Assembly (NCBI GenBank): GCA_965197885.1
Contig: OZ240231.1
Coordinates: forward strand, 1,839,366 to 1,903,365
DNA from: Thermodesulfobacteriota bacterium
GTDB taxonomy: Bacteria; Desulfobacterota_D; UBA1144; Nemesobacterales; Nemesobacteraceae
DNA length: 64,000 nucleotides
Direction: 5' to 3'
Under the pieces are notes generated by a model, which did not search any database, had not been told where the DNA came from, and worked only from the letters and a program-made list of their open reading frames with translations. Both the position numbers and the translations under genes were made by a program. Below, piece by piece: positions 32,341-42,887 of this stretch (its first letter is position 1; each line of letters opens with the position of its first letter).

Positions 32341-32515
32341 AGAATTTCTCCGTGCCGTGCCTCCCCCGACTTTTGGGTAAGTAAGTATATAATTCACATT
32401 TGTTTCTGCCAACATGCTGAAACCGTTTAAATTTCGATTTTTCCCGCCTGTCGCCGTGGTGCCGGTTCGGTTGCGGGAATTGTTATTTGCTTTTTTCGGC
32501 TTTAATATTAAACGA

Positions 32516-33190
32516 GTGTCTGGAAAAGCCGTTGTCATGCTCTCGGGAGGAGTGGACAGTTCTACCCTCTGCTACAAAGCGGTGCGGGAAGGTTACGAAG
32601 TCTTTCCTCTTAGCTTTATCTACGGGCAGAAACATGAAAAAGAGATTCACTCCTCGGAGAATATATGCCGCCATCTGGGACTTCGGCCGAACATAGTTGA
32701 TCTTTCTTCCATAAAGGATCTTTTCGGTGCCAGCGCGCTTACCGACCGGGACATCGAGATTCCAAGGGTTTCCGCATCCGCGCGCAATTACGAGACTCTC
32801 TCCTCTACGGTTGTTCCGAACCGAAACGCCATTTTTCTTTCCCTGGCAGTCGCGTATTCGCAGAGCATCGGCTGCGACACGGTGTTCTACGGCGCGCATC
32901 ATTCCGACAGGGGCGTGTATCCCGACTGTCGCCTGGAGTTTGTTTCCGCTTTCGAGGAGGCGGAGAGACTCGCGACTGATAACAAGCGGCTCGCCATAGT
33001 CGCTCCGTTTGTGGATATGGACAAGTCCGGTATAGTCAGGCTCGGTGTGCGTCTCGGAGTTCCTTTCAAAGACACGTGGTCATGCTACGTGGGTTCCCGG
33101 GTGCACTGTGGCACCTGCAGTTCCTGCAGAGAGAGAAAAAGGGCTTTTATCGAAGCGGACGTGGCCGACCCGACCGAATACGAGGCGTAA
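32516..33190 (+). CDS. queC: 7-cyano-7-deazaguanine synthase
   Basis: SGGVDSS PP-loop and a C-terminal zinc motif CxxC (CGTCSSCRER). The start is uncertain: GTG at 32516 or ATG at 32537. Confidence 0.8.
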   Translation: MSGKAVVMLSGGVDSSTLCYKAVREGYEVFPLSFIYGQKHEKEIHSSENICRHLGLRPNIVDLSSIKDLFGASALTDRDIEIPRVSASARNYETLSSTVVPNRNAIFLSLAVAYSQSIGCDTVFYGAHHSDRGVYPDCRLEFVSAFEEAERLATDNKRLAIVAPFVDMDKSGIVRLGVRLGVPFKDTWSCYVGSRVHCGTCSSCRERKRAFIEADVADPTEYEA

Positions 33191-33195
33191 TTGCG

Positions 33196-33837
33196 ATGAA
33201 GGTAAGCGAGATCTTCTTTTCAATACAGGGGGAGGGAGTCCATATCGGGCTGCCGACGGTTTTTCTCAGGCTTTTTGCCTGTGATCTAAGATGCAGCTGG
33301 TGCGATACCATGTACGCGGTGGAGGGAACCGATTTCCGGGAAATCGAAAACGAGAAAGTGCTGAGCAGAATTCTTGAGTACGGCTGCTCCCGCGTCTGCA
33401 TAACCGGCGGTGAGCCGCTTATCCAGCGGGAGGCCGTGGAGGAGGTAGCGGAATTTCTGCTCGAAAGGGATTTTGCGGTCGTGCTTGAAACGAGCGGAAA
33501 CAAGAAACCGCCTGAGATTTTTTCCCACCCGAATTCGATTGTGAGTATGGACTGCAAGTGTCCCGGTTCGGGCATGGACTCCAGAATGGATTTTTCACTT
33601 TACGATTCCTTGGAGGAAAAGGACCAGCTTAAGTTCGTGATAGCCGACAATGCGGATTACGAATACGCAAGGGGTGTTATAGCGGAGCATAATATCAGGG
33701 CTTCGATCATATTCCAGCCCGTTTACGGCACACAAGCAGACTGGATAGCCGAGAGAATTCTCCGTGATGGTATGGGAAACGTGAGAGTGCTTCCCCAGCT
33801 TCACAAAATATTCTGGGGAGAAAAAAGAGGGGTTTAG
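33196..33837 (+). CDS. queE: 7-carboxy-7-deazaguanine synthase (radical SAM)
   Basis: FSIQGEG and Cx3Cx2C-like CDLRCSWCD motifs. Start trimmed to MKVSEIF. Confidence 0.8.
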   Translation: MKVSEIFFSIQGEGVHIGLPTVFLRLFACDLRCSWCDTMYAVEGTDFREIENEKVLSRILEYGCSRVCITGGEPLIQREAVEEVAEFLLERDFAVVLETSGNKKPPEIFSHPNSIVSMDCKCPGSGMDSRMDFSLYDSLEEKDQLKFVIADNADYEYARGVIAEHNIRASIIFQPVYGTQADWIAERILRDGMGNVRVLPQLHKIFWGEKRGV

Positions 33838-34848: not shown

Positions 34849-35202
34849 TTATTTGCCCGGCACACAGTTTTTTCTGAGAAAATCGAATGTGTAGAACCCG
34901 GTTTCGCACCAGGTCTCTCCTATAAACCTTATAGCGTAATTCCCAACGTATTCTATTCTCTCCGGTGCCAAGCCGCTTTTTCCAAGGGGAATGCGTTTTT
35001 TAAACGGAAGTTTTCCCGTCCTGCTTTTCTTTCTGAGTCTCCTGCAGGTGGCGCAGGGACAGATTTCCCTGAGTTCGTCGTAAAAGAATATGTTTTCTTC
35101 TCCGTCATCCCAGACGATCTGAAGAGCTTTTTCAGTAAATTCGTTTATTTCCTTAGGTTTTACGCCCATAACACGATATTCTACCTGTCCGTTGAAGAGC
35201 AA
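34849..35202 (-). CDS. DUF971 family protein (gamma-butyrobetaine hydroxylase-like N-terminal domain)
   Basis: 117 aa with a CPCATC motif. Confidence 0.5.
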   Translation of the reverse strand: MLFNGQVEYRVMGVKPKEINEFTEKALQIVWDDGEENIFFYDELREICPCATCRRLRKKSRTGKLPFKKRIPLGKSGLAPERIEYVGNYAIRFIGETWCETGFYTFDFLRKNCVPGK

Positions 35203-35293: not shown

Positions 35294-36295
35294 CTAATCT
35301 CTGGTGCCGGCGAAAACCTGCTCTCCGAATATAACCGCGGTCAGGTCAACCAGGAGTTTTGCCGTCTGTCCCCTGTTGTCGAGAAACGGGTTTAACTCCG
35401 CAAGATCAAGAGATGACAAAAGCCCGCTCTCGTGGATCATCTCCATAATAAGGTAAGCTTCCCGCAGTCCCAGTCCCCCGGAGACCGGAGTGCCTGTGCC
35501 CGGAGCCAGCGACGGATCTAGCGAGTCGGCATCAAAAGAGACATGCAGAAGACCTTCTTCCTCACGTACCCAGTTTAGATAGTCCAATAAGAGTGGTGCG
35601 CGGACGCCTCCTTCGCTCACGGAACGTATATTGATAAGCTCGATTCCACTGGATTTAAGCCCGATGCGTTCGATCCGGTCAACGGAACGCAGGCCGACTA
35701 GCGCTACTCTTTCCCCCGAGATCGGACAAGGCGGAGAGGGAAACTCTTCGACTTCAAAGCCCGATTGCCCGGTCAGCCAAGCGACGGACATGCCGTGAGT
35801 ATGTCCGCTTTCGCTTGTCATGGGCGTGTTAAAATCGCTATGGGCATCAATCCAGAGTAAAAAGAGCTTGCGGTCCATCTTGGCGGTCCGTAGGGCCATT
35901 GCGGAGACAGAACCCATGGAGAGCGAGTGATCGCCTCCAAGAAAAATCGGTAATTCTTCATCGCCGAGGTCTTCTCCGACCTTCTGCAGGGCTTCAATCC
36001 AATTGACGGTCTGTTCGGGCTCGTGGATGATCGGTTCGTCAAACATCGGGTCATCAAGCATAGCATCGTCAAGCATCGGATCGGGTACCGGAACATGAAT
36101 GGGTGAGGAAAGAATTTCGGATGGGATAATGGAACCTATGTCACGCACGTTGTGCTCCAGATCCTCAAGAGCCTTCGCCAGACCGGCGACATGCAGCGCA
36201 TCCGGTCCCATTCGACAGCCTTTCTGACGTTTTCCGCTGTCAACCGGCGCTCCAATCAGACATATGTTTTTCGGAGTAATTGTTTTTTCTGCCAT
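35294..36295 (-). CDS. Arginase family protein (arginase/agmatinase/formiminoglutamase-like)
   Basis: GGDHS, DAHSD and SFDADSLDP Mn-binding motifs, plus an unusual Asp/Pro-rich insertion. Confidence 0.75.
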   Translation of the reverse strand: MAEKTITPKNICLIGAPVDSGKRQKGCRMGPDALHVAGLAKALEDLEHNVRDIGSIIPSEILSSPIHVPVPDPMLDDAMLDDPMFDEPIIHEPEQTVNWIEALQKVGEDLGDEELPIFLGGDHSLSMGSVSAMALRTAKMDRKLFLLWIDAHSDFNTPMTSESGHTHGMSVAWLTGQSGFEVEEFPSPPCPISGERVALVGLRSVDRIERIGLKSSGIELINIRSVSEGGVRAPLLLDYLNWVREEEGLLHVSFDADSLDPSLAPGTGTPVSGGLGLREAYLIMEMIHESGLLSSLDLAELNPFLDNRGQTAKLLVDLTAVIFGEQVFAGTRD

Positions 36296-36545
36296 GGAAA
36301 CAGTATTACTCTATTTAAGGTCGGATGTTCCACTGTTAATTTTTAATCCAAAAAGAATATCTTGCTGTAATTCGTTGTCAAAATGCTGCGATGCGAGTAG
36401 GCAGTTGCGGCGGCGTAATGCATTTCCGTGGTTTCCCCGAACGTATCACTACATGCAAATTGACGCGTACGGTGCAAGTACAGTTTTAATTCGCCGCCTG
36501 CTTTTATTCAGCGTGGTTTCAAGTGCCAAACGTAGCGGGTGGATC

Positions 36546-36590
36546 AGTTCCGAAGAACAACTGATCCGGTGTTTTTCGCGGTCTGAATTC
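36546..36590 (+). other. Stable hairpin followed by a T-run (terminator-like) inside the 360-bp divergent intergenic region
   Basis: GGATCAGTT-ccgaagaac-AACTGATCC, then ggtgtttttcg. Confidence 0.3.
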
Positions 36591-36658
36591 GTTTGCTGTC
36601 GGTAAGCTGCAATCAATTTGCGGACAGTTGACGCAAGCGGTTATAATCAAAACCTGAA

Positions 36659-37423
36659 ATGAGCGAGCAGGAACAGGATGCGCTTTCGGTTACAGTAACC
36701 TGGATTCGGGAGTCCTCCCAAGTAGTTTTTCTTACTGGAGTTGAGCTTTCCCTTGATGTCGGGCTGCCGGACGTTTCAGATCTTAGCTTCAATCCCGACA
36801 TAGGAAAATTCAAGAATCGCCCAGAGGTCAGAAGGGAGTACTGGGAAAAAATAAAGGATTTCTATCCCAGAATTTCAGAGGCTCGGCCTTCTCCCGCCCA
36901 CGAAGCGATTTACGAGATGGAGTTTCTCTGCAACGTCGATTGCGTTTTGACCCAGGCGGCCGACGGGTTGCACAGCAAAACCGGCAGCGAAAAGATAATA
37001 GAGATATACTCGACGATAAACTGGGTCCACTGCCACGAATGCGGAAACGATTACCGGACTGACGGGATTTTGCTTTCTCTTGAAGACAGCAAAACCGGTA
37101 TTCCGAAGTGCAGGGAATGTCAAAGCGACCAGATGAAGCCTCCGCTGTCCTTTCCGGGCCAGCCACTTCCTCACTGGGAGATAAGAGAATCTTGGATGAG
37201 GCTTCAGCACTGCGATCTTTTCATAATCGTCGGGGCGAACCTGGAAATCGAACCCGTGGCGTCTTTTCCCTTTCAGGTCATGAACAAGGGAAACAGGGTC
37301 GTTATTATCGGCGAGAGAAAAACTCCAGCTGACGATCACGTGAGCGCCGTCATATACGGAAGCCCCAGCATGGTGATGCCTTACATAGTCGATAAACTCA
37401 AGGAAACGCAAACGCTTTCCTGA
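36659..37423 (+). CDS. Sir2-family (sirtuin-like) protein with degenerate catalytic motifs
   Basis: Collinear with CobB, including the Zn ribbon (CHEC...CREC). GAGIS becomes GVELS, QNID becomes QAAD, and the catalytic HG becomes YS. Confidence 0.6.
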   Translation: MSEQEQDALSVTVTWIRESSQVVFLTGVELSLDVGLPDVSDLSFNPDIGKFKNRPEVRREYWEKIKDFYPRISEARPSPAHEAIYEMEFLCNVDCVLTQAADGLHSKTGSEKIIEIYSTINWVHCHECGNDYRTDGILLSLEDSKTGIPKCRECQSDQMKPPLSFPGQPLPHWEIRESWMRLQHCDLFIIVGANLEIEPVASFPFQVMNKGNRVVIIGERKTPADDHVSAVIYGSPSMVMPYIVDKLKETQTLS

Positions 37424-37460
37424 ACCGCTTGGGCCATGGGCTGGGGACCGGGGAGCAGAT

Positions 37461-38960
37461 TTGTCTGTCGAGGTGAAAATGGCACTGGATGATAATAGCG
37501 TCGCCCGAGAAATGGAACGTTACGTTTCGAATCTCGACAGGGACATTTATACCATAAGCAATATTCCCGAAGAAGTCGTTGCTGTTATCTTCGCCTATGT
37601 AAGCAGAAGCCCGAAAAGTTTCAGGGAAAACATAGATACTGTGATAAGGGAGCAGGAGATGGGGAGGGACAGGGCGGAGAAGTTCCATGAAAAATGGGTT
37701 CTTAACTACGGTCACGCCTCTGTTGCCGAGCACGCGACTGTGCACATAGGCGTTGAGAGGGTTTCAAGACTTTTCTCTTCCCTGCTTGAGTGCGCAAACG
37801 AGTTTCTCTCGTTCACCGAATATTCCCAGAGATACCAGAGACCGCGCAAAGGCGATAATTACATTCCCGAAGAGCTTGACTCACACCCGGCTCTTAAAAG
37901 AGAGTTCGAGTCGCTTTGCGATTTTCAGTACGAAGTTTACTCGAGGCTTAATGGGGAACTTTTTGATTTTCTGAAAAGAAAATTTCCCGTCCCCGAAGGC
38001 AAGGAGGAAAAACCCCACTTCAGGGCGCTTGAGAAAATAGCGTTTGAAGACGCGAGGTACGCTCTTAATCTCTCTACCCTTACGAATCTGGGTATGACGG
38101 CAAACGCAAGAGCCATAGAGCAGACTATCTCCGCGCTTCTTTCAAGCTGCTACCTTGAGGCGAGAAAAAGGGCCGAGGAGATAAAAAGCGAGGTCGGATT
38201 CTCCGTTCCTACGCTTGTAAAATACGCTGACGAAAACCCTTACATAGTCAAAACGCGCGAGGCGCTTGCGGAATTTTCCCGCGGTCTTGGCGGTCCGGAA
38301 AAAAGCAAACCCGAAAACGGATCCTCTGTGACTCTTTTTGACTACACAGGAAAGGGAAAGGAACGTCCCCAGGTCGAGGCGTTAAAGGAGATCGCTAGGG
38401 GGCTTCTTTTCGAATTCTCGGGACTTTCAGCCGGCGATATAGAAAGACATCTTTCCGAAAACACCTCTGAACTTGAGGGGATTTTCTCAATTGCCGTTGA
38501 GGCACTCGGAAGGCACGATAACCCGGCCGGGATATTCAAATCGGTTAGTTACAACGCGGAGTTTGTCCTGAGCGAGGCGGCGTGGCATCAACTGCTCAGG
38601 CACAGGAAAGTCAACTGGACCGCGAAGGAGCCTTCTATTGAGCAAGGCGTGACTATTCCCCCGCACGTTACGGAATCAGGAACGGAGGAACTCCTGCTCG
38701 AGGCCGTCGGACGAAGCGAGCAGTTCTACGAAAAACTCATTGACGCTGGTTTTCGCGATGTCGCGAGCTATGTTGTCACAAATGCTCATAACAGGAGGGT
38801 TTCGGGCAGTTTCGACCTATGGGAGCTTTATCACCTGACGAATCTCAGAATGTCTACCTCGGCACAGTGGGATATAAGAAATGTCGTCAGGCAGCTTGCG
38901 CAGAGCATTGAAGAGGTTCATCCGGTCTTCGTCCGTTCCGCCCTGCGGAGAGTCGAGTGA
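37461..38960 (+). CDS. thyX: FAD-dependent thymidylate synthase ThyX, tandem two-domain form
   Basis: Domain 1 has GHASVAEH and EYSQRY but lacks RHR. Domain 2 has RHR and NLRMSTSAQWDIRN, the ThyX LRxxxHAQWE motif. Confidence 0.65.
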   Translation: MSVEVKMALDDNSVAREMERYVSNLDRDIYTISNIPEEVVAVIFAYVSRSPKSFRENIDTVIREQEMGRDRAEKFHEKWVLNYGHASVAEHATVHIGVERVSRLFSSLLECANEFLSFTEYSQRYQRPRKGDNYIPEELDSHPALKREFESLCDFQYEVYSRLNGELFDFLKRKFPVPEGKEEKPHFRALEKIAFEDARYALNLSTLTNLGMTANARAIEQTISALLSSCYLEARKRAEEIKSEVGFSVPTLVKYADENPYIVKTREALAEFSRGLGGPEKSKPENGSSVTLFDYTGKGKERPQVEALKEIARGLLFEFSGLSAGDIERHLSENTSELEGIFSIAVEALGRHDNPAGIFKSVSYNAEFVLSEAAWHQLLRHRKVNWTAKEPSIEQGVTIPPHVTESGTEELLLEAVGRSEQFYEKLIDAGFRDVASYVVTNAHNRRVSGSFDLWELYHLTNLRMSTSAQWDIRNVVRQLAQSIEEVHPVFVRSALRRVE

Positions 38961-38978
38961 GGAAAAAGGGATAATCCG

Positions 38979-39185
38979 ATGCCGCTGCAACCTGTCAGAA
39001 GATGTGAAGAGTGCGGTTACGAAAGCACCGCGAAAACTGATGTCTGTCTTGCCTGCGGGGAGAGGATTCGAGGCAAGATGAAAGGTGGTCTAAGGGGGTT
39101 TCTTCGAAGCATAATACTTCTCGCGATAGCGGTTTATATCCTTTTGTCCGCGTTTAAAGTTTTCGGATTTTCACTGGCGGTATGA
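38979..39185 (+). CDS. Small zinc-ribbon membrane protein
   Basis: CEECGY...CLACG zinc ribbon plus a C-terminal TM helix. Sits 19 nt after thyX and 4 nt before the next gene. Confidence 0.4.
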   Translation: MPLQPVRRCEECGYESTAKTDVCLACGERIRGKMKGGLRGFLRSIILLAIAVYILLSAFKVFGFSLAV

Positions 39186-39189
39186 TACT

Positions 39190-39687
39190 GTGGCTGATTC
39201 AAATCACGTCTCGAAAATAAAGGAGGGGGCGGCCGCGTGGAACCGTTGGCGGGGAGAGGAGCCCGATGTTCTGCCGGATCTTGGCTGGGCTAATCTTAAC
39301 GGGCTTAATCTTGACGGTGTGGTATTTGCGAAATCGGTTCTCAAGCTCGCTTTCTGCAAGGGGTGCAGTTTGGTGGGCGCGGATTTCTCCGGGGCTAATC
39401 TGCGCGGAATTAATCTTGAAGGATGCGATCTTCGTGGCGCGGTATTCAGTAATGCTAACCTTGAAGGAGCCCACATGCTGGGCGCTGATCTTACGGGTGC
39501 CGATTTTGCGGGAGCTGACCTCAAGCTTGCCAATTTCGACGGGGCGATCCTGAGGGATGCTAATCTTGCGGGCGCGAAAAAACTGCGGGCTTCCCAGCTT
39601 TTCAGTCTTGGGGATCTTGAAAATCTCAAGGTTTCAGACAAAATCCTGGAGAAGGTGAAAAGCCAGTCCCCTCATCTGTTTGAGTAG
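39190..39687 (+). CDS. Pentapeptide repeat-containing protein
   Basis: Repeated A(D/N)LxG pentapeptides (ADFSGANLRGINLEGCDLRGAVFSNANLEGAHMLGADLTGADFAGADL). GTG start. Confidence 0.8.
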   Translation: MADSNHVSKIKEGAAAWNRWRGEEPDVLPDLGWANLNGLNLDGVVFAKSVLKLAFCKGCSLVGADFSGANLRGINLEGCDLRGAVFSNANLEGAHMLGADLTGADFAGADLKLANFDGAILRDANLAGAKKLRASQLFSLGDLENLKVSDKILEKVKSQSPHLFE

Positions 39688-39852
39688 GTTTTCTCTTCGG
39701 GAACATTCTTTGAAGCTTTACCCTCGTCTCTAAAAGCGGCTCCGTGCTTTCGCTTGGATGTTTACCTATACGAAGATTCTGTGCCGCCGCTTGCCTGTGG
39801 CTTTTCTGGGGAATTTCACCAAAGCTTTTGGTATTTGGACGGAAATTTAAGC

Positions 39853-39908
39853 TTGACTTAGGAAATTATTTACTTATTATAGCAGATAATGATATTTTAT
39901 GCATATCA
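39853..39908 (+). promoter_or_regulatory. abiEi promoter with an inverted-repeat operator
   Basis: -35 TTGACT at 39853-58, a 16 nt spacer, and -10 TATTAT at 39875-80. The inverted repeat TGATAT-N7-ATATCA lies at 39890-39908 over the predicted transcription start. Confidence 0.45.
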
Positions 39909-39922
39909 ATACGGAGACTGCC

Positions 39923-40720
39923 ATGAATAATAAGCGCCCTAGGGCAAGCAGTGTCATAGATGAGTTTGCCTCGGTCGGCCGGTACCATTTCACTGCCGCG
40001 GAAATACGTTCGGCACTAGGCGTATCAGATGCTGCGACTAGACTTGCTCTTGGAAGGCTGGTGAAAAAAGGTTTGGTTGCGAGTCCGGGCCGTGGCTTCT
40101 ACGTCATCGTGCCGCCCGAATACCGACGCTTCGGATGTCTGCCTCCGGCCCAGTTTATCCCGCAGCTTATGGAGCGTCGTGAACGACCGTACTATGTCGC
40201 TTTGCTTTCCGCCGCCCAGTATCATGGGGCCGCTCATCACCGTCCGCAGGTATTCCAAGTCGCCGTCTCCGGAAGCCGCCGCCCGATTTCCTGTGGCGCG
40301 GTCAGGGTTTCCTTCATCTCACGGGCGCGCATTGCCGAGGTTCCGGTTCAGACTCTCAATACGCCATGCGGGACGCTTCTTCTTTCAACCGTTGAAGCAA
40401 CCGCGGTTGACTTGGTGGGTTACGCGCGACGCGCTGCGGGGTGGGACAACGTGGCGACAATTCTCTGCGAACTTGCTGAAGAAATTGATCCGAATCTGCT
40501 GTGCGAAGCTGCGCGAACCGCTCCGGTCACCTGGGCTCAGCGCCTTGGCTATCTCCTGGAACTTGTCGGCGCGGCGGATAAGGCGTTGCCGCTAAAGAAC
40601 TATGTGCGGCGCTACGCCCGTGACATCACGCCGCTCATTCCGCATGCCGCCGTAGATCACGCGAGGCGCGCCGATGACTGGCGGCTGTTGGTAAATGCCG
40701 ACGTGGAGTCTGAGGTATGA
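39923..40720 (+). CDS. abiEi: AbiEi family antitoxin/transcriptional regulator (type IV toxin-antitoxin system)
   Basis: N-terminal winged helix-like region and the AbiEi architecture. GC is clearly higher than in the flanks. Start set at MNNKRPR with a ggaga RBS; the track start at 39899 lies inside the operator. Confidence 0.7.
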   Translation: MNNKRPRASSVIDEFASVGRYHFTAAEIRSALGVSDAATRLALGRLVKKGLVASPGRGFYVIVPPEYRRFGCLPPAQFIPQLMERRERPYYVALLSAAQYHGAAHHRPQVFQVAVSGSRRPISCGAVRVSFISRARIAEVPVQTLNTPCGTLLLSTVEATAVDLVGYARRAAGWDNVATILCELAEEIDPNLLCEAARTAPVTWAQRLGYLLELVGAADKALPLKNYVRRYARDITPLIPHAAVDHARRADDWRLLVNADVESEV

Positions 40721-41532
40721 TCCCGCACCGTTACATCGCCGAGTGGCGAACTCAGGCACCGTGGCTGGAGGATTTCCAAGTCGAGCAGGACCTAATAATA
40801 AGCCGCGCGCTAGTTGAAATATTTTCCCATCCCGTCTTGGCGGCCGGACTTGCTTTTCATGGCGGCACGGCCCTCTACAAACTCTACCTGGAGCAGTCGA
40901 GCCGTTATTCGGAAGATATAGATCTGGTTCGGATAGCTCCCGGACCCGCCGGTGCCATAATGGATTCCATTCACGAAGTTCTCGATCCGTGGCTCGGTAA
41001 ACCTAAATGGAAACAGACCGAGCGCTCCGTTACGCTTCTTTACAGGTTTGAATCAGAAGATACACCGCCTTTACGCATGACTCTGAAAATTGAGATCAAT
41101 TCCCGCGAGCACTTCTCTGTCTTTGGCTATAATAAAGTTCCTTTTTCCGTCATTTCTTCCTGGTTTAACGGAACCTGTGATATTGTTACGTACTCGCTAG
41201 ACGAGCTTCTCGGCACGAAATTGCGCGCCCTTTATCAGCGCAAGAAAGGACGGGATCTTTTTGACTTGGCAACTGCGCTGGATAACGCGGCTGTCGATCC
41301 CGAACGTGTTATCACAGCATTTTTCGAATACATGAAACGGGGCGGCGACCACATCACCCGTGCCTTGTTTGAACGAAACATGGCGGACAAACTGCAAGAC
41401 CCGCGATTTGACGCCGACATAGTACCCTTGCTGGCGCCTGGCTGCCTCTGGAATATGGAAGAGCTGGCTAGAAGCGTTTCCACACGGCTCATTGCATTGT
41501 TGCCCGGTCAACCGTGGAAGGGAGAGGGATGA
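40717..41532 (+). CDS. abiEii: Nucleotidyltransferase AbiEii/AbiGii toxin family protein (DUF1814)
   Basis: HGGTALYKLY...RYSEDIDL nucleotidyltransferase motif. ATGA overlap with abiEi. Confidence 0.8.
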   Translation: MIPHRYIAEWRTQAPWLEDFQVEQDLIISRALVEIFSHPVLAAGLAFHGGTALYKLYLEQSSRYSEDIDLVRIAPGPAGAIMDSIHEVLDPWLGKPKWKQTERSVTLLYRFESEDTPPLRMTLKIEINSREHFSVFGYNKVPFSVISSWFNGTCDIVTYSLDELLGTKLRALYQRKKGRDLFDLATALDNAAVDPERVITAFFEYMKRGGDHITRALFERNMADKLQDPRFDADIVPLLAPGCLWNMEELARSVSTRLIALLPGQPWKGEG

Positions 41533-41729: not shown

Positions 41730-42887
41730 TTGAAGATGAGCAGAAAAATCTACAGTGTATCGGAACTCAATTCCTCGATAAAAGGGGCGATTGAACTTGA
41801 GTTCGGCGGGCAGACGATATGGGTTGCGGGAGAGATCTCCGGTTTTAAGGGGCATTACGCAAGCGGCCACTGGTATTTTTCCCTAAAGGATGAGCAAAGC
41901 CAGATCTCCGCTGCCTGCTTCAGAAGGGACAACCAGCAAATAAAGTTCACGCCGGAGAACGGAATGGAAATTATATGCGCTGCTCGCGTGGGGGTTTACG
42001 AGAAAAACGGCGTTTACCAGTTATACGTAAGCGCTATGGAACCGAAAGGAGTGGGTGCCGATGCGCTCGCACTTGAAAGACTCAAGCAAAAGCTTCTGGA
42101 AGAGGGACTTTTTGACGTCTCGAAAAAGCGACCCCTTCCGTTTCTCTCCCGTAAAATAGGGGTTGTTACTTCTCCTTCGGGAGCCGCCGTGAGGGATGTC
42201 ATAAAGGTCGTGTACAGAAGGTCTCCCAATGTTGAGGTGATTATTTCACCCGCGAGCGTTCAGGGAGATGGTGCCCCGGGTGAGATAGTTAAAGCTCTTG
42301 AGAGGCTTTACGGCATGGAAGACCTTGATCTTGTGATCGTAACCAGGGGAGGGGGGTCAAAAGAAGATCTGAGGGCTTTTAACGATGAGTGGGTTGCGAG
42401 GAAAATCGCCGCTTCCCCCTTTCCCGTGATCTCCGCCGTAGGTCATGAAGTGGACGTGACCATAGCCGATCTCGTATCCGACGTGAGGGCGGCCACGCCT
42501 TCAATGGCCGCCGAACTTGCCGTAAAGGAAAAAAGGGAGATTCTCGAAGATCTCGCGCAGTTTCGCCGCAGGCTCGATTTTTCTCTCACAAGCCGCATCG
42601 ATATGTTCTCCATGCAGCTTGACGGACTCGCAAACAGCTTCAAACATCACATGACCTTCCGGATTGAGAATCTTGAACGCCGCATCGAGAATTATTCGGG
42701 AAAACTCACTTCTCTTAACCCTTTCGGTGTTCTCCAGAGGGGGTACGCCATAGTTTCAAAGGAAGAAAGCGGCGAGATAGTGCAGGATTCCCGGACGCTT
42801 GAGCACAAGGAAAAGCTCGTTTTAAGACTCAGCAGAGGCAAGGCGTTTTGCAGCGTTGAGGGGACGGAGAACGAACCGCAGACTTGA
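41730..42887 (+). CDS. xseA: Exodeoxyribonuclease VII large subunit
   Basis: N-terminal OB fold (IWVAGEIS) and the catalytic region VISAVGHEVD. Confidence 0.85.
   Translation: MKMSRKIYSVSELNSSIKGAIELEFGGQTIWVAGEISGFKGHYASGHWYFSLKDEQSQISAACFRRDNQQIKFTPENGMEIICAARVGVYEKNGVYQLYVSAMEPKGVGADALALERLKQKLLEEGLFDVSKKRPLPFLSRKIGVVTSPSGAAVRDVIKVVYRRSPNVEVIISPASVQGDGAPGEIVKALERLYGMEDLDLVIVTRGGGSKEDLRAFNDEWVARKIAASPFPVISAVGHEVDVTIADLVSDVRAATPSMAAELAVKEKREILEDLAQFRRRLDFSLTSRIDMFSMQLDGLANSFKHHMTFRIENLERRIENYSGKLTSLNPFGVLQRGYAIVSKEESGEIVQDSRTLEHKEKLVLRLSRGKAFCSVEGTENEPQT

What the first reader, a model, noticed from the sequence alone, without database searches (positions are those of the whole stretch)
36659..39687. 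Four-gene operon starting with a catalytically degenerate sirtuin homolog ahead of thyX
The Sir2-family protein is collinear with bacterial CobB and keeps the Zn-ribbon cysteines, but every signature residue for NAD binding and catalysis is changed. GAGIS...FR becomes GVELS...DV, QNID becomes QAAD, and the catalytic His of the HG motif becomes YS. It is followed, with 38-nt, 19-nt and 4-nt gaps, by a tandem ThyX, a 68-aa zinc-ribbon membrane peptide and a pentapeptide-repeat protein. A sirtuin pseudo-enzyme co-transcribed with flavin-dependent thymidylate synthase is not a described pairing. It might act as a non-catalytic NAD(P)-, ADP-ribose- or nucleotide-binding partner or regulator. The 360-bp leader upstream (36296-36658) contains a strong hairpin with a T-tract, which could be an attenuator or a small RNA.
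Basis: partly seen in the sequence, partly recalled or inferred. Interest (0 to 1): 0.6.

Follow-up and report, generated by a model that had tools for sequence, protein, structure and literature searches.

The report
Dead sirtuin conserved beside tandem ThyX
A whole bacterial lineage (Candidatus Dadabacteria) keeps, under strong selection, a sirtuin-shaped protein that has lost every residue needed to bind NAD+ or catalyse deacylation, almost always encoded directly next to an unusual double-domain thymidylate synthase, so it probably works as a non-enzymatic partner, but what it does has not been shown.

Summary
ORF 36659-37423 encodes a full sirtuin fold (AlphaFold pLDDT 92, TM 0.83 to Sir2Af2/Sir2Tm) with four invariant Zn cysteines. 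The NAD+/catalytic signature is gone: GAGIS is GVELS, FR is VS, QNID is QAAD, and the catalytic His is Tyr.

This is a discrete family. In 105 unique homologues the second Gly is never Gly (Glu in 99), the Arg is never Arg, and the Asn and His positions drift; none has both. A profile search of 1.84 billion representatives gives 395 and 285 bits for the family, then 175 bits for canonical sirtuins. All labelled members are Dadabacteria.

It is not decaying: dN/dS is 0.055, the lowest in the block.

A tandem ThyX lies within 2 kb downstream in 108 of 110 loci. That is tighter than any other neighbour, and it persists where the flanks differ.

The ThyX halves keep complementary subsets of the catalytic motifs, invariantly.

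The "360-nt leader" idea fails. A conserved TTG-N17/18-TATAAT promoter ends 7-11 nt before the ATG, giving a leaderless mRNA, and the hairpin lies upstream of it.

The most likely function is a non-catalytic accessory protein of the ThyX module. That is inferred, not shown; rate covariation gave no support.

The parts
36659..37423 (+). Sir2L: sirtuin-fold pseudoenzyme (254 aa). Zn-ribbon intact; NAD+/catalytic motifs replaced (GVELS, VS, QAAD, Y117, SFPGQ, GAN).
   Evidence: motifs; invariant Cys and new invariant residues; pLDDT 92, TM 0.83 to Sir2Af2/Sir2Tm; motif census; dN/dS 0.055; isolated clade.
36618..36647 (+). Inferred sigma-70-type promoter: -35 TTGCGG (36618-36623), 18-nt spacer, -10 TATAAT (36642-36647). 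It ends 11 nt before the ATG, so the mRNA is leaderless or nearly so. An inverted repeat TTGCG-N9-CGCAA (36618-36636) overlaps the -35 element and spacer and could be an operator.
   Evidence: TATAAT conserved in all 34 genome loci. It lies 7 nt (L030), 9 nt (L031/L032) or 11 nt from the ATG, with TTGnnn 17-18 nt upstream. No SD is evident; the only perfect TATAAT abutting a start codon among about 50 putative genes in the window. No transcript data.
37461..38960 (+). Tandem ThyX (499 aa; two Thy1 domains) with complementary half-motifs. The N-half lacks RHR (A-N-E) but keeps S117..E120.S122-Q-R-Y125, R199 and N215-A-R217. The C-half keeps H376-Q377..R380-H-R382 and R463 but lacks the others.
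   Evidence: TIGR02170 80.2 vs cut-off 87.9; alignments to Mtb, Cgl and Tma ThyX; pattern invariant in 94 unique sequences; the confident part of the model matches ThyX structures; the N-half model is unreliable.
38979..39185 (+). 68-aa zinc-ribbon (CxxC-N9-CxxC) peptide with a hydrophobic C-terminal segment.
   Evidence: DZR, below cut-off; present in 58/73 loci; dN/dS 0.215, so a real coding gene.
39190..39687 (+). Pentapeptide-repeat protein (165 aa).
   Evidence: 62/73 loci; dN/dS 0.132; the only protein whose distances covary with Sir2L after controlling for the others, partial r 0.49.
39786..39811 (+). Terminator-like hairpin plus T-run after the pentapeptide gene. It lies in window-specific sequence next to the AbiE insertion.
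   Evidence: consensus scan only.
41730..42887 (+). xseA (exonuclease VII large subunit), probably the ancestral fifth gene of the unit. Here it is separated from PRP by an inserted AbiEi/AbiEii module (39899-41532).
   Evidence: xseA downstream in 63/73 loci; PRP-to-xseA gap under 200 nt in 49/59.
36541..36579 (+). Hairpin (GGATCAGTT-N9-AACTGATCC) followed by GGTGTTTTTCGC. It lies upstream of the inferred promoter and is not part of a leader; its role is unknown.
   Evidence: identical in 4 arginase-bearing relatives; a different-sequence hairpin plus T-run at the same place in L022; no Rfam match; z = -1.26.
34849..35202 (-). GBBH-like_N (DUF971) gene. It is the usual divergent upstream neighbour of Sir2L, displaced here by the arginase insertion (35294-36295, minus strand).
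   Evidence: divergent upstream in 85/110 loci.

Best explanation
Sir2L is a lineage-specific sirtuin pseudoenzyme found in Candidatus Dadabacteria. It keeps the complete Rossmann plus Zn-ribbon fold but cannot bind NAD+ in the sirtuin mode or catalyse deacylation. It is made from a leaderless transcript as the first gene of a unit whose constant second gene is a tandem ThyX.

Shown here: the fold; the loss of every NAD+/catalytic signature; the relaxed constraint at exactly the former catalytic Asn and His positions; new invariant residues in the former substrate/NAD cleft (E29, K160-P-P-x-S-F-P-G-Q-P-x-P-H-W-E-x-R-E-x-W179); very strong purifying selection; and near-universal adjacency to ThyX.

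Inferred: the remodelled cleft is now a binding surface, and Sir2L acts as a non-catalytic accessory subunit (assembly, stabilisation or regulation) of the ThyX enzyme or of the thymidylate/DNA-metabolism module encoded with it (ThyX, Zn-ribbon peptide, pentapeptide-repeat protein, exonuclease VII).

The tandem ThyX itself most likely forms a dimer of tandems that mimics the usual homotetramer. Only the composite sites built from the N-half S..SQRY/R/NxR residues and the C-half HQ..RHR/R residues would then be functional, which leaves half of the former sites vestigial.
For: Fold and Zn site. Loss of function motifs, conserved family-wide: (the second Gly of GAGIS is E in 99/105 and never G; Arg never present; Asn 9/105; His 14/105; none with both). 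All nearest outgroups inspected are canonical. Discrete clade: 395/285 bits, then 175 bits, in 1.84e9 representatives. Purifying selection: dN/dS 0.055, the lowest of 10 genes in the block. Linkage: ThyX within 2 kb downstream in 108/110 loci and 24/25 at <=50% identity, against GBBH_N 10/20 and PRP, ZnR and xseA 3/8 each. Same strand with a gap <=300 nt in 89/99. The pair persists with different flanks (ExbBD upstream in L037/L040; IMS-family (PF00817) gene upstream in L046). All 4 ThyX-side look-ups found Sir2L upstream. [quoted passage not shown] Promoter. Precedent for neighbouring pseudoenzyme regulators of bacterial metabolic enzymes: bioRxiv 10.1101/2025.10.31.685773.
Against: There is no direct evidence of a Sir2L-ThyX contact. 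Distance-matrix covariation between Sir2L and ThyX vanishes after controlling for the other block proteins (partial r -0.09). In Ca. Mycalebacterium the two genes are convergent, so not co-transcribed. In five loci unrelated genes are inserted between them, and one locus (L115) has Sir2L without ThyX within 2.7 kb. All labelled members belong to one phylum-level lineage with generally conserved local synteny, so part of the linkage may be inherited gene order. No fusion protein was found. A complex could not be modelled, and the ThyX N-half model is unreliable.
Confidence: 0.45

Rival explanations
1. Sir2L is a genuine non-catalytic protein, but its function is unrelated to ThyX (for example an acyl-lysine or peptide 'reader', or a structural Zn protein). 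The adjacency would then be gene order inherited within one lineage.
For: All labelled members are Dadabacteria, and the wider block (queC, queE, methyltransferase, GBBH_N, xseA) is also syntenic. There is no specific rate covariation with ThyX. Convergent orientation in Mycalebacterium, insertions between the genes, and L115 without ThyX.
Against: ThyX linkage (108/110; 24/25 at <=50% identity) clearly exceeds that of every other neighbour at the same divergence (GBBH_N 10/20; PRP, ZnR and xseA 3/8 each). It also survives complete replacement of the upstream flank. Even after the Mycalebacterium rearrangement the two genes remain immediate neighbours.
Confidence: 0.25
2. Sir2L is not a pseudoenzyme but a repurposed enzyme or small-molecule sensor. 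The new invariant polar residues in the old cleft (E29, D102, K160, Q168, H172, R176, E177) would bind, and perhaps transform, a ligand other than NAD+, such as a nucleoside/nucleotide, folate or flavin species relevant to ThyX.
For: Several pocket residues are retained (G27, S31, Q99, D102, G192) and the new ones are invariant rather than decayed. dN/dS is very low. ThyX lacks a Rossmann-type domain for its reductant NADPH (PMC3498832), so a Rossmann-fold partner is suggestive.
Against: The glycine that contacts the dinucleotide pyrophosphate is an invariant acidic residue, the loop Arg is absent and the adenine-ribose Asn is mostly lost. This argues against NAD(P)H, FAD or ADP-ribose in the canonical mode. 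No ligand evidence of any kind was obtainable here.
Confidence: 0.2
3. One reading: a non-catalytic NAD(P)- or ADP-ribose-binding regulator of ThyX, with an attenuator or small RNA in a 360-nt leader.
For: Sirtuin fold. The hairpin plus T-run is present.
Against: NAD-contact residues are replaced family-wide. A conserved promoter abuts the ATG, so the hairpin is not in the transcript from that promoter. The long spacer exists in only 5 genomes because of an arginase insertion. No Rfam match, and the fold is not better than shuffles.
Confidence: 0.07
4. A defence-type SIR2 NADase, or a decaying pseudogene or misannotation.
For: An AbiE toxin-antitoxin module lies 200 nt downstream of the block in this window. 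Databases label some members simply 'hypothetical'.
Against: No PADLOC model matches any of the four proteins. The best matches are CobB/Sir2Af2-type sirtuins, not SIR2_2. NAD-binding residues are absent. AbiE is present in only a minority of relatives. dN/dS of 0.055 and intact ORFs in more than 100 loci exclude decay.
Confidence: 0.02

Closest known systems
Sir2Af2 (Archaeoglobus fulgidus) and Sir2Tm (Thermotoga maritima) / bacterial CobB NAD+-dependent protein deacylases
   Same: Same length, collinear, same Rossmann plus Zn-ribbon fold (TM 0.83, E 1e-23). The four Zn cysteines, TQ..D..H, and the overall FGE-loop and GxS positions can be aligned.
   Different: Every NAD+-contact and catalytic signature is replaced (GAGIS to GxELS, FR to [FV]S, QNxD Asn lost in 96/105, His lost in 91/105, VFFGE to SFPGQ, GSS to GA[NS], IIN to II[GS]). 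Scores are far below the curated CobB cut-offs (138 vs 320).
Sir2Tm H116Y (PDB 2H4H), an engineered catalytic-His mutant used to trap the p53 peptide-NAD complex
   Same: The same His-to-Tyr replacement that the window protein, and 42/105 family members, carry naturally.
   Different: The engineered mutant keeps the NAD+ and peptide sites intact. The natural family has additionally lost the NAD+ site.
Neighbour-encoded pseudoenzyme regulators of bacterial metabolic enzymes (e.g. the Thermus thermophilus alanine-dehydrogenase-like protein that regulates CoA transferase; bioRxiv 10.1101/2025.10.31.685773)
   Same: A catalytically dead homologue of a dinucleotide-dependent enzyme, proposed here to work by binding rather than catalysis.
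   Different: Different fold. ADLP retains NAD(H) binding and senses the NAD+/NADH ratio, whereas Sir2L has lost the dinucleotide motifs. The interaction is demonstrated for ADLP and only inferred here.
Homotetrameric ThyX (T. maritima, M. tuberculosis, PBCV-1)
   Same: Thy1 domain fold. All the ThyX-motif residues compared here are present somewhere in the chain.
   Different: Two Thy1 domains in one chain, each retaining only a complementary subset of the motifs. The protein scores below the TIGR02170 cut-off. Whether tandem ThyX with split motifs has been described could not be established from the searched literature.
Cofactor-less middle domains of thiamine-diphosphate enzymes (PF00205, the same DHS-like NAD/FAD-binding fold superfamily); from my own knowledge, not tested here
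   Same: A Sir2-like Rossmann domain that in some members binds no dinucleotide and serves structural or regulatory roles. Faint PF00205 hits were recorded for some family members.
   Different: A domain inside a larger enzyme rather than a stand-alone protein, and without a Zn-ribbon.

Membership tests
Sirtuin / CobB NAD+-dependent protein deacylases | Sir2 fold: Rossmann domain plus small Zn-binding module | tested here: met
   Pfam SIR2 83 bits; AF2 pLDDT 92.4; Foldseek TM 0.83 to Sir2Af2/Sir2Tm.
Sirtuin / CobB NAD+-dependent protein deacylases | Four Zn-coordinating cysteines (CxxC...CxxC) | tested here: met
   C125, C128, C151, C154 invariant in 40 aligned members.
Sirtuin / CobB NAD+-dependent protein deacylases | NAD+-binding signature GAGIS...(F)R, GxS and the adenine-ribose Asn | tested here: not met
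   GVELS / VS / GAN / G in the window protein. Family-wide: second Gly never G (E 99/105), Arg never R, Asn 11/105. All outgroups inspected are canonical.
Sirtuin / CobB NAD+-dependent protein deacylases | Catalytic Asn (QNxD) and catalytic His (HG) | tested here: not met
   QAAD and Y117 in the window. Asn 9/105, His 14/105, none with both.
Sirtuin / CobB NAD+-dependent protein deacylases | Reaches a curated equivalog score | tested here: not met
   Best NCBIfam hit NF040867 scores 138 bits against a cut-off of 320; all seven models are below cut-off.
Sirtuin / CobB NAD+-dependent protein deacylases | NAD+-dependent deacylase or ADP-ribosyltransferase activity | not testable with these tools
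   Needs a biochemical assay.
Defence-associated SIR2 NADases (ThsA, DSR, SIR2-HerA, SPARSA) | Match to a defence SIR2 model and presence of the partner gene (HerA, pAgo, SLOG, etc.) | tested here: not met
   No PADLOC hit for any of the four proteins. The neighbours are ThyX, a Zn-ribbon peptide, PRP and xseA.
Flavin-dependent thymidylate synthase ThyX | Thy1 domain | tested here: met
   PF02511, 162 bits, two stretches. The confident part of the model matches ThyX structures.
Flavin-dependent thymidylate synthase ThyX | ThyX motif RHR(x7)S plus the dUMP/FAD-binding Arg and Asn residues | tested here: inconclusive
   Neither half has the full set, but the two halves together do, invariantly in 94 sequences. 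TIGR02170 scores 80.2 against a cut-off of 87.9. The fold family also contains PolB and a ThyX described as not required for thymidylate biosynthesis.
Flavin-dependent thymidylate synthase ThyX | dUMP to dTMP activity with FAD, NADPH and CH2-H4folate | not testable with these tools
   Needs an assay or complementation of a thyA-deficient host.
Pentapeptide-repeat proteins | Tandem A(D/N)LXX repeats | tested here: met
   PF00805, 89 bits, three stretches.
Transcription attenuator / riboswitch / sRNA in a 5' leader | Lies within the transcribed 5' UTR of the regulated gene | tested here: not met
   The conserved -35/-10 promoter ends 11 nt before the ATG, and the hairpin is 51 nt upstream of the -35. 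This is inferred from sequence conservation, with no transcript data.
Transcription attenuator / riboswitch / sRNA in a 5' leader | Conserved structure or a match to a described RNA family | tested here: inconclusive
   No credible Rfam match (best E 0.14, a eukaryotic lncRNA family). z = -1.26. The hairpin is identical in 4 near-identical relatives, and a different-sequence hairpin plus T-run sits at the same place in L022.

The most novel reading that the evidence does not exclude
Sir2L is an obligate non-catalytic subunit or allosteric regulator of a half-of-sites tandem ThyX. It would be the first sirtuin-fold pseudoenzyme shown to control an enzyme of DNA-precursor synthesis, perhaps by docking on the vestigial half-sites or by gating access of the reductant or folate to a flavoenzyme that has no nucleotide-binding domain of its own.
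Probability: 0.25. Interest if true: 0.75.

Novelty: new variant of a known kind. Interest (0 to 1): 0.55.

Why it matters
Sirtuins are treated as NAD+-dependent enzymes. Public annotation already labels members of this family "Sir2 family NAD-dependent protein deacetylase" or "SIR2 family NAD-dependent protein deacylase", which the sequence evidence contradicts.

The family is a clean natural example of pseudoenzyme evolution in this fold. The cofactor loop was lost once. The catalytic Asn and His then drifted freely, while a remodelled cleft became invariant and the protein came under stronger constraint than its enzyme neighbours.

Its near-obligate pairing with a tandem ThyX whose halves have divided the catalytic residues between them suggests an unrecognised accessory factor for flavin-dependent thymidylate synthesis. 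ThyX is studied as an antibacterial target, and how it is regulated and how its reductant binds remain poorly understood.

The case is directly testable with two recombinant proteins. It also matters for metabolic reconstruction of Dadabacteria, a widespread uncultured lineage of marine, sponge-associated and sediment habitats.

Tried and rejected
1. Defence-system SIR2: rejected, with no PADLOC hits and no partner genes.

2. Decaying pseudogene: rejected, on dN/dS 0.055 and intact ORFs in more than 100 loci.

3. Shifted catalytic residues: rejected. Pairwise, profile and family alignments agree, and all outgroups inspected are canonical at the same columns.

4. Attenuator or riboswitch in the leader: no credible Rfam match, folding not better than shuffles, and a promoter abutting the ATG.

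5. Mirror-tree / rate covariation as evidence for a Sir2L-ThyX contact: negative (partial r -0.09). The method is weak with 54 related taxa, so this is not evidence of absence.

6. Co-folding Sir2L with ThyX as a linker-joined paired alignment: sequences were prepared but not submitted.

7. ThyX structure model: overall pLDDT 66.6 with residues 1-125 below 50, so it was not used for inter-half geometry.

8. AlphaFold-database fold search: library unavailable.

9. Literature on tandem ThyX with split motifs, and on sirtuin pseudoenzymes in bacteria: nothing relevant found in the searched library. Absence from this library is not proof of absence.


Full report
**What is there.** The four + strand ORFs are as described: 36659-37423 (254 aa), 37461-38960 (499 aa), 38979-39185 (68 aa) and 39190-39687 (165 aa), separated by 37, 18 and 4 nt. 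Pfam assigns SIR2 (83 bits), Thy1 in two stretches (162 bits) and Pentapeptide (89 bits); the 68-aa peptide has a weak double-zinc-ribbon hit below cut-off. Upstream on the minus strand lie an arginase (35294-36295) and a GBBH-like_N/DUF971 gene (34849-35202). Downstream come an AbiEi/AbiEii toxin-antitoxin pair (39899-41532) and then xseA (41730-42887). Related loci carry titles naming Candidatus Dadabacteria or Thermodesulfobacteriota MAGs of 1.5-2.4 Mb.

**The sirtuin is degenerate.** Alignments to solved sirtuins show full-length collinearity with Sir2Af2 (E 1e-32) and Sir2Tm. They confirm each substitution:
- TGAGIS becomes TGVELS.
- IPDFR becomes LPDVS.
- TQNID becomes TQAAD.
- ELHG becomes EIYS.
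- VFFGE becomes LSFPGQ.
- GSS becomes GAN.
- The adenine-ribose Asn of "IVN" becomes Gly.

One of the top sequence hits, 2H4H, is the engineered Sir2Tm H116Y mutant, which carries the same His-to-Tyr change. Every NCBIfam CobB model is far below cut-off (best 138 vs 320). An AlphaFold model built on 40 family sequences is confident (pLDDT 92.4, pTM 0.89) and superposes on Sir2Af2 and Sir2Tm at TM about 0.83. The fold is therefore intact and only the chemistry is gone.

**It is a family, not an accident.** Fifty clusters at 46-85% identity were found, plus 34 genome loci and 80 metagenome loci. In 105 unique sequences:
- The residue replacing the second Gly of GAGIS is Glu in 99, Asp in 3, and never Gly.
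- The loop Arg is never Arg.
- The QNxD Asn survives in 9 and the catalytic His in 14, and no sequence has both. The His position is Y/N/H/F/L/C/S.
- The four Zn cysteines and a new stretch, K160-P-P-x-S-F-P-G-Q-P-x-P-H-W-E-x-R-E-x-W179, are invariant or nearly so.

This pattern fits an ancestral loss of cofactor binding, followed by neutral drift at the now-useless catalytic positions and by new constraint on the old cleft. A profile search of 1.84 billion representatives returns the family at 395 and 285 bits and then drops to 175 bits. All the outgroups inspected carry canonical GAGIS, FR, QN.D, HG, GSS and IIN. All members with a taxonomic label are Dadabacteria or Thermodesulfobacteriota. 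They are annotated as "hypothetical protein", "Sir2 family NAD-dependent protein deacetylase" or "SIR2 family NAD-dependent protein deacylase".

**It is under strong selection.** Nei-Gojobori dN/dS among the 35 closest loci is 0.055 for Sir2L. This is the lowest of ten genes in the block (ThyX 0.116, xseA 0.095, queE 0.098, PRP 0.132, ZnR peptide 0.215).

**Linkage to ThyX.** ThyX lies within 2 kb downstream in 108 of 110 loci with enough sequence, and in 24 of 25 at <=50% Sir2L identity. For full-length ThyX ORFs, 89 of 99 loci have it on the same strand within 300 nt (median gap 44). The other neighbours are clearly less constant: GBBH_N 85/110 (10/20 at <=50%), PRP 62/73, ZnR 58/73, xseA 63/73 (3/8 each at <=50%). 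The pair persists where the upstream flank is replaced, by ExbB/ExbD in L037/L040 and by an IMS-family (PF00817) gene in L046. Four look-ups that started from ThyX homologues at about 60% identity all found a 250-aa SIR2 gene upstream.

The exceptions are instructive:
- In Ca. Mycalebacterium the block is rearranged, and ThyX is adjacent but convergent.
- Five loci have 1.3-1.6 kb of unrelated genes inserted between the pair.
- L115 has Sir2L and GBBH_N but no ThyX within 2.7 kb.

The caveat is that everything lies within one lineage whose local gene order is generally conserved.

**The ThyX is unusual too.** Aligning each half to Mtb, C. glutamicum and T. maritima ThyX gives the following. 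In the N-half, RHR is replaced by A-N-E, but S117, E120, S122-Q-R-Y125, R199 (the "AR" arginine) and N215-A-R217 are kept. The C-half keeps H376-Q377, R380-H-R382 and R463 (the "NLR" arginine) but lacks the other three groups. This complementary split is invariant in 94 unique sequences. [quoted passage not shown] The simplest reading is therefore a dimer of tandems in which only one of the two kinds of composite site is functional. That is an inference: the AlphaFold model is unreliable for residues 1-125. Its confident part matches ThyX structures, but also PolB and a C. glutamicum ThyX described as not required for thymidylate biosynthesis. The TIGR02170 score is just below cut-off.

**The leader idea fails.** Directly upstream of the ATG the sequence is GGTTATAATCAAAACCTGAA-ATG. 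The TATAAT (36642-36647) is conserved in all 34 genome loci, including the most distant: L030 has 7 nt to the ATG and L031/L032 have 9 nt. A TTGnnn element lies 17-18 nt upstream, and I saw no Shine-Dalgarno sequence. It is the only perfect TATAAT abutting a start codon among about 50 putative genes in the window. The transcript is therefore most likely leaderless or has a 4-5 nt leader.

The hairpin (36541-36567) and its T-run lie upstream of the -35. The long spacer exists only because an arginase gene sits there in the window and four close relatives; elsewhere GBBH_N is roughly 90-250 nt away. Rfam finds nothing credible, and the region folds no better than shuffles (z = -1.26). A different-sequence hairpin plus T-run at the same place in L022, and a conserved "TTTTTCGC..CTGAATTC" in many loci, leave some unexplained upstream element. 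It is not an attenuator of the promoter inferred here.

**How it probably works.** Shown: the fold is retained, the NAD+/catalytic residues are lost, the cleft is remodelled and constrained, selection is strong, and the ThyX adjacency is near-obligate. Inferred: Sir2L acts by binding, as an accessory of the ThyX enzyme or of the thymidylate/DNA module (ThyX, ZnR peptide, PRP, xseA).

The canonical dinucleotide mode is unlikely because an acidic side chain replaces the pyrophosphate-contacting glycine. A different small ligand cannot be excluded, since G27, S31, Q99, D102 and G192 are retained. ThyX has no Rossmann-type NADPH domain, which makes a Rossmann-fold partner tempting, but nothing here supports reductant binding.

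The one interaction test I could run, distance-matrix covariation, gave no Sir2L-ThyX signal (partial r -0.09). It gave a modest Sir2L-PRP signal (0.49). I therefore put 0.45 on the accessory-of-ThyX reading, 0.25 on an unrelated non-catalytic role, 0.2 on a repurposed ligand-binding or enzymatic role, and little on the rest.

**Comparison with the known.** By fold the protein is a sirtuin, closest to the Sir2Af2/Sir2Tm/CobB type. It fails the defining cofactor and catalytic features, so it should not be filed as an NAD+-dependent deacylase. It is not a defence SIR2. Conceptually it resembles neighbour-encoded pseudoenzyme regulators such as the T. thermophilus alanine-dehydrogenase-like protein, but unlike that protein it has lost dinucleotide binding. 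No paper in the searched library links thyX with a sirtuin or discusses thymidylate synthesis in Dadabacteria.

**Verdict.** This is a real, conserved, previously undescribed subfamily: a new variant of a known kind. Its genomic association with a split-motif tandem ThyX is strong, but its mechanism is open. Interest is moderate to good (0.55). Pseudoenzymes are common, so a dead sirtuin alone is not startling. The tight pairing with an unusual ThyX and the clean evolutionary signature make it an inexpensive and worthwhile experimental target.

Noticed in passing
window 36618-36661: A conserved -35 (TTGCGG) / 18 nt / -10 (TATAAT) promoter ends 11 nt before the Sir2L ATG, with no SD evident, implying a leaderless or near-leaderless mRNA. 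The TATAAT is kept in all 34 genome loci at 7-11 nt from the ATG. It is the only such case among about 50 putative genes in the window. An inverted repeat TTGCG-N9-CGCAA overlaps the -35 and spacer and could be an operator.
   Followed up: partly
window 37461-38960: The two Thy1 domains of the tandem ThyX retain complementary, non-overlapping subsets of the ThyX catalytic/cofactor motifs, invariantly across 94 sequences. This suggests composite active sites and half-of-sites architecture.
   Followed up: partly
window 39899-41532: An AbiEi/AbiEii type IV toxin-antitoxin module is inserted between the pentapeptide gene and xseA. It is present in only about a quarter of close relatives (L013, L014, L017-L020, L022, L034). 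In L020 the AbiEii gene is itself split by about 3 kb of extra DNA, and in L019 only AbiEi remains.
   Followed up: partly
window 35294-36295 (minus strand): The arginase gene between GBBH_N and Sir2L is present only in the window and four close relatives (L001, L002, L007, L026). In L001 it matches as two adjacent pieces, possibly a frameshift.
   Followed up: partly
window 34849-35202 (minus strand); L035, L039, L044, L045, L115: A small Cys-rich GBBH-like_N (DUF971) gene is the usual divergent upstream neighbour of Sir2L (85/110 loci). It stays next to Sir2L even in L115, which lacks ThyX, and in rearranged Mycalebacterium. It may belong to the same functional unit.
   Followed up: no
window 39190-39687 and related loci: After controlling for the other block proteins, Sir2L distances covary with the pentapeptide-repeat protein (partial r 0.49) but not with ThyX (-0.09). 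This is a weak lead that PRP rather than ThyX could be the partner.
   Followed up: no
window 36541-36579; L022, L006, L012, L016 upstream regions: A hairpin plus T-run sits upstream of the Sir2L promoter on the + strand, with no + strand gene before it. L022 has a different-sequence hairpin at the same position, and 'TTTTTCGC..CTGAATTC' recurs in many loci. A palindromic AATCGATT-like motif also recurs upstream. The function is unknown (small RNA, insulator or binding site).
   Followed up: partly
L044 3682-4873; L070, L072, L079, L080: In one subgroup, 1.3-1.6 kb of unrelated genes (in L044 a SnoaL-like gene on the opposite strand plus a 173-aa ORF) are inserted between Sir2L and ThyX. Co-transcription is therefore not obligatory.
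   Followed up: no
public annotation of family members (P0011, P0023, P0320): Members are annotated 'SIR2 family NAD-dependent protein deacylase', 'Sir2 family NAD-dependent protein deacetylase' or 'NAD-dependent deacetylase' in public databases. This is probably wrong, because the NAD+ and catalytic residues are lost.
   Followed up: yes
window 32414-33837: queC and queE (7-deazaguanine/preQ0 synthesis) lie just upstream and are syntenic with the block in most relatives. The listed queC and queE ORFs overlap because of long upstream alternative starts.
   Followed up: no
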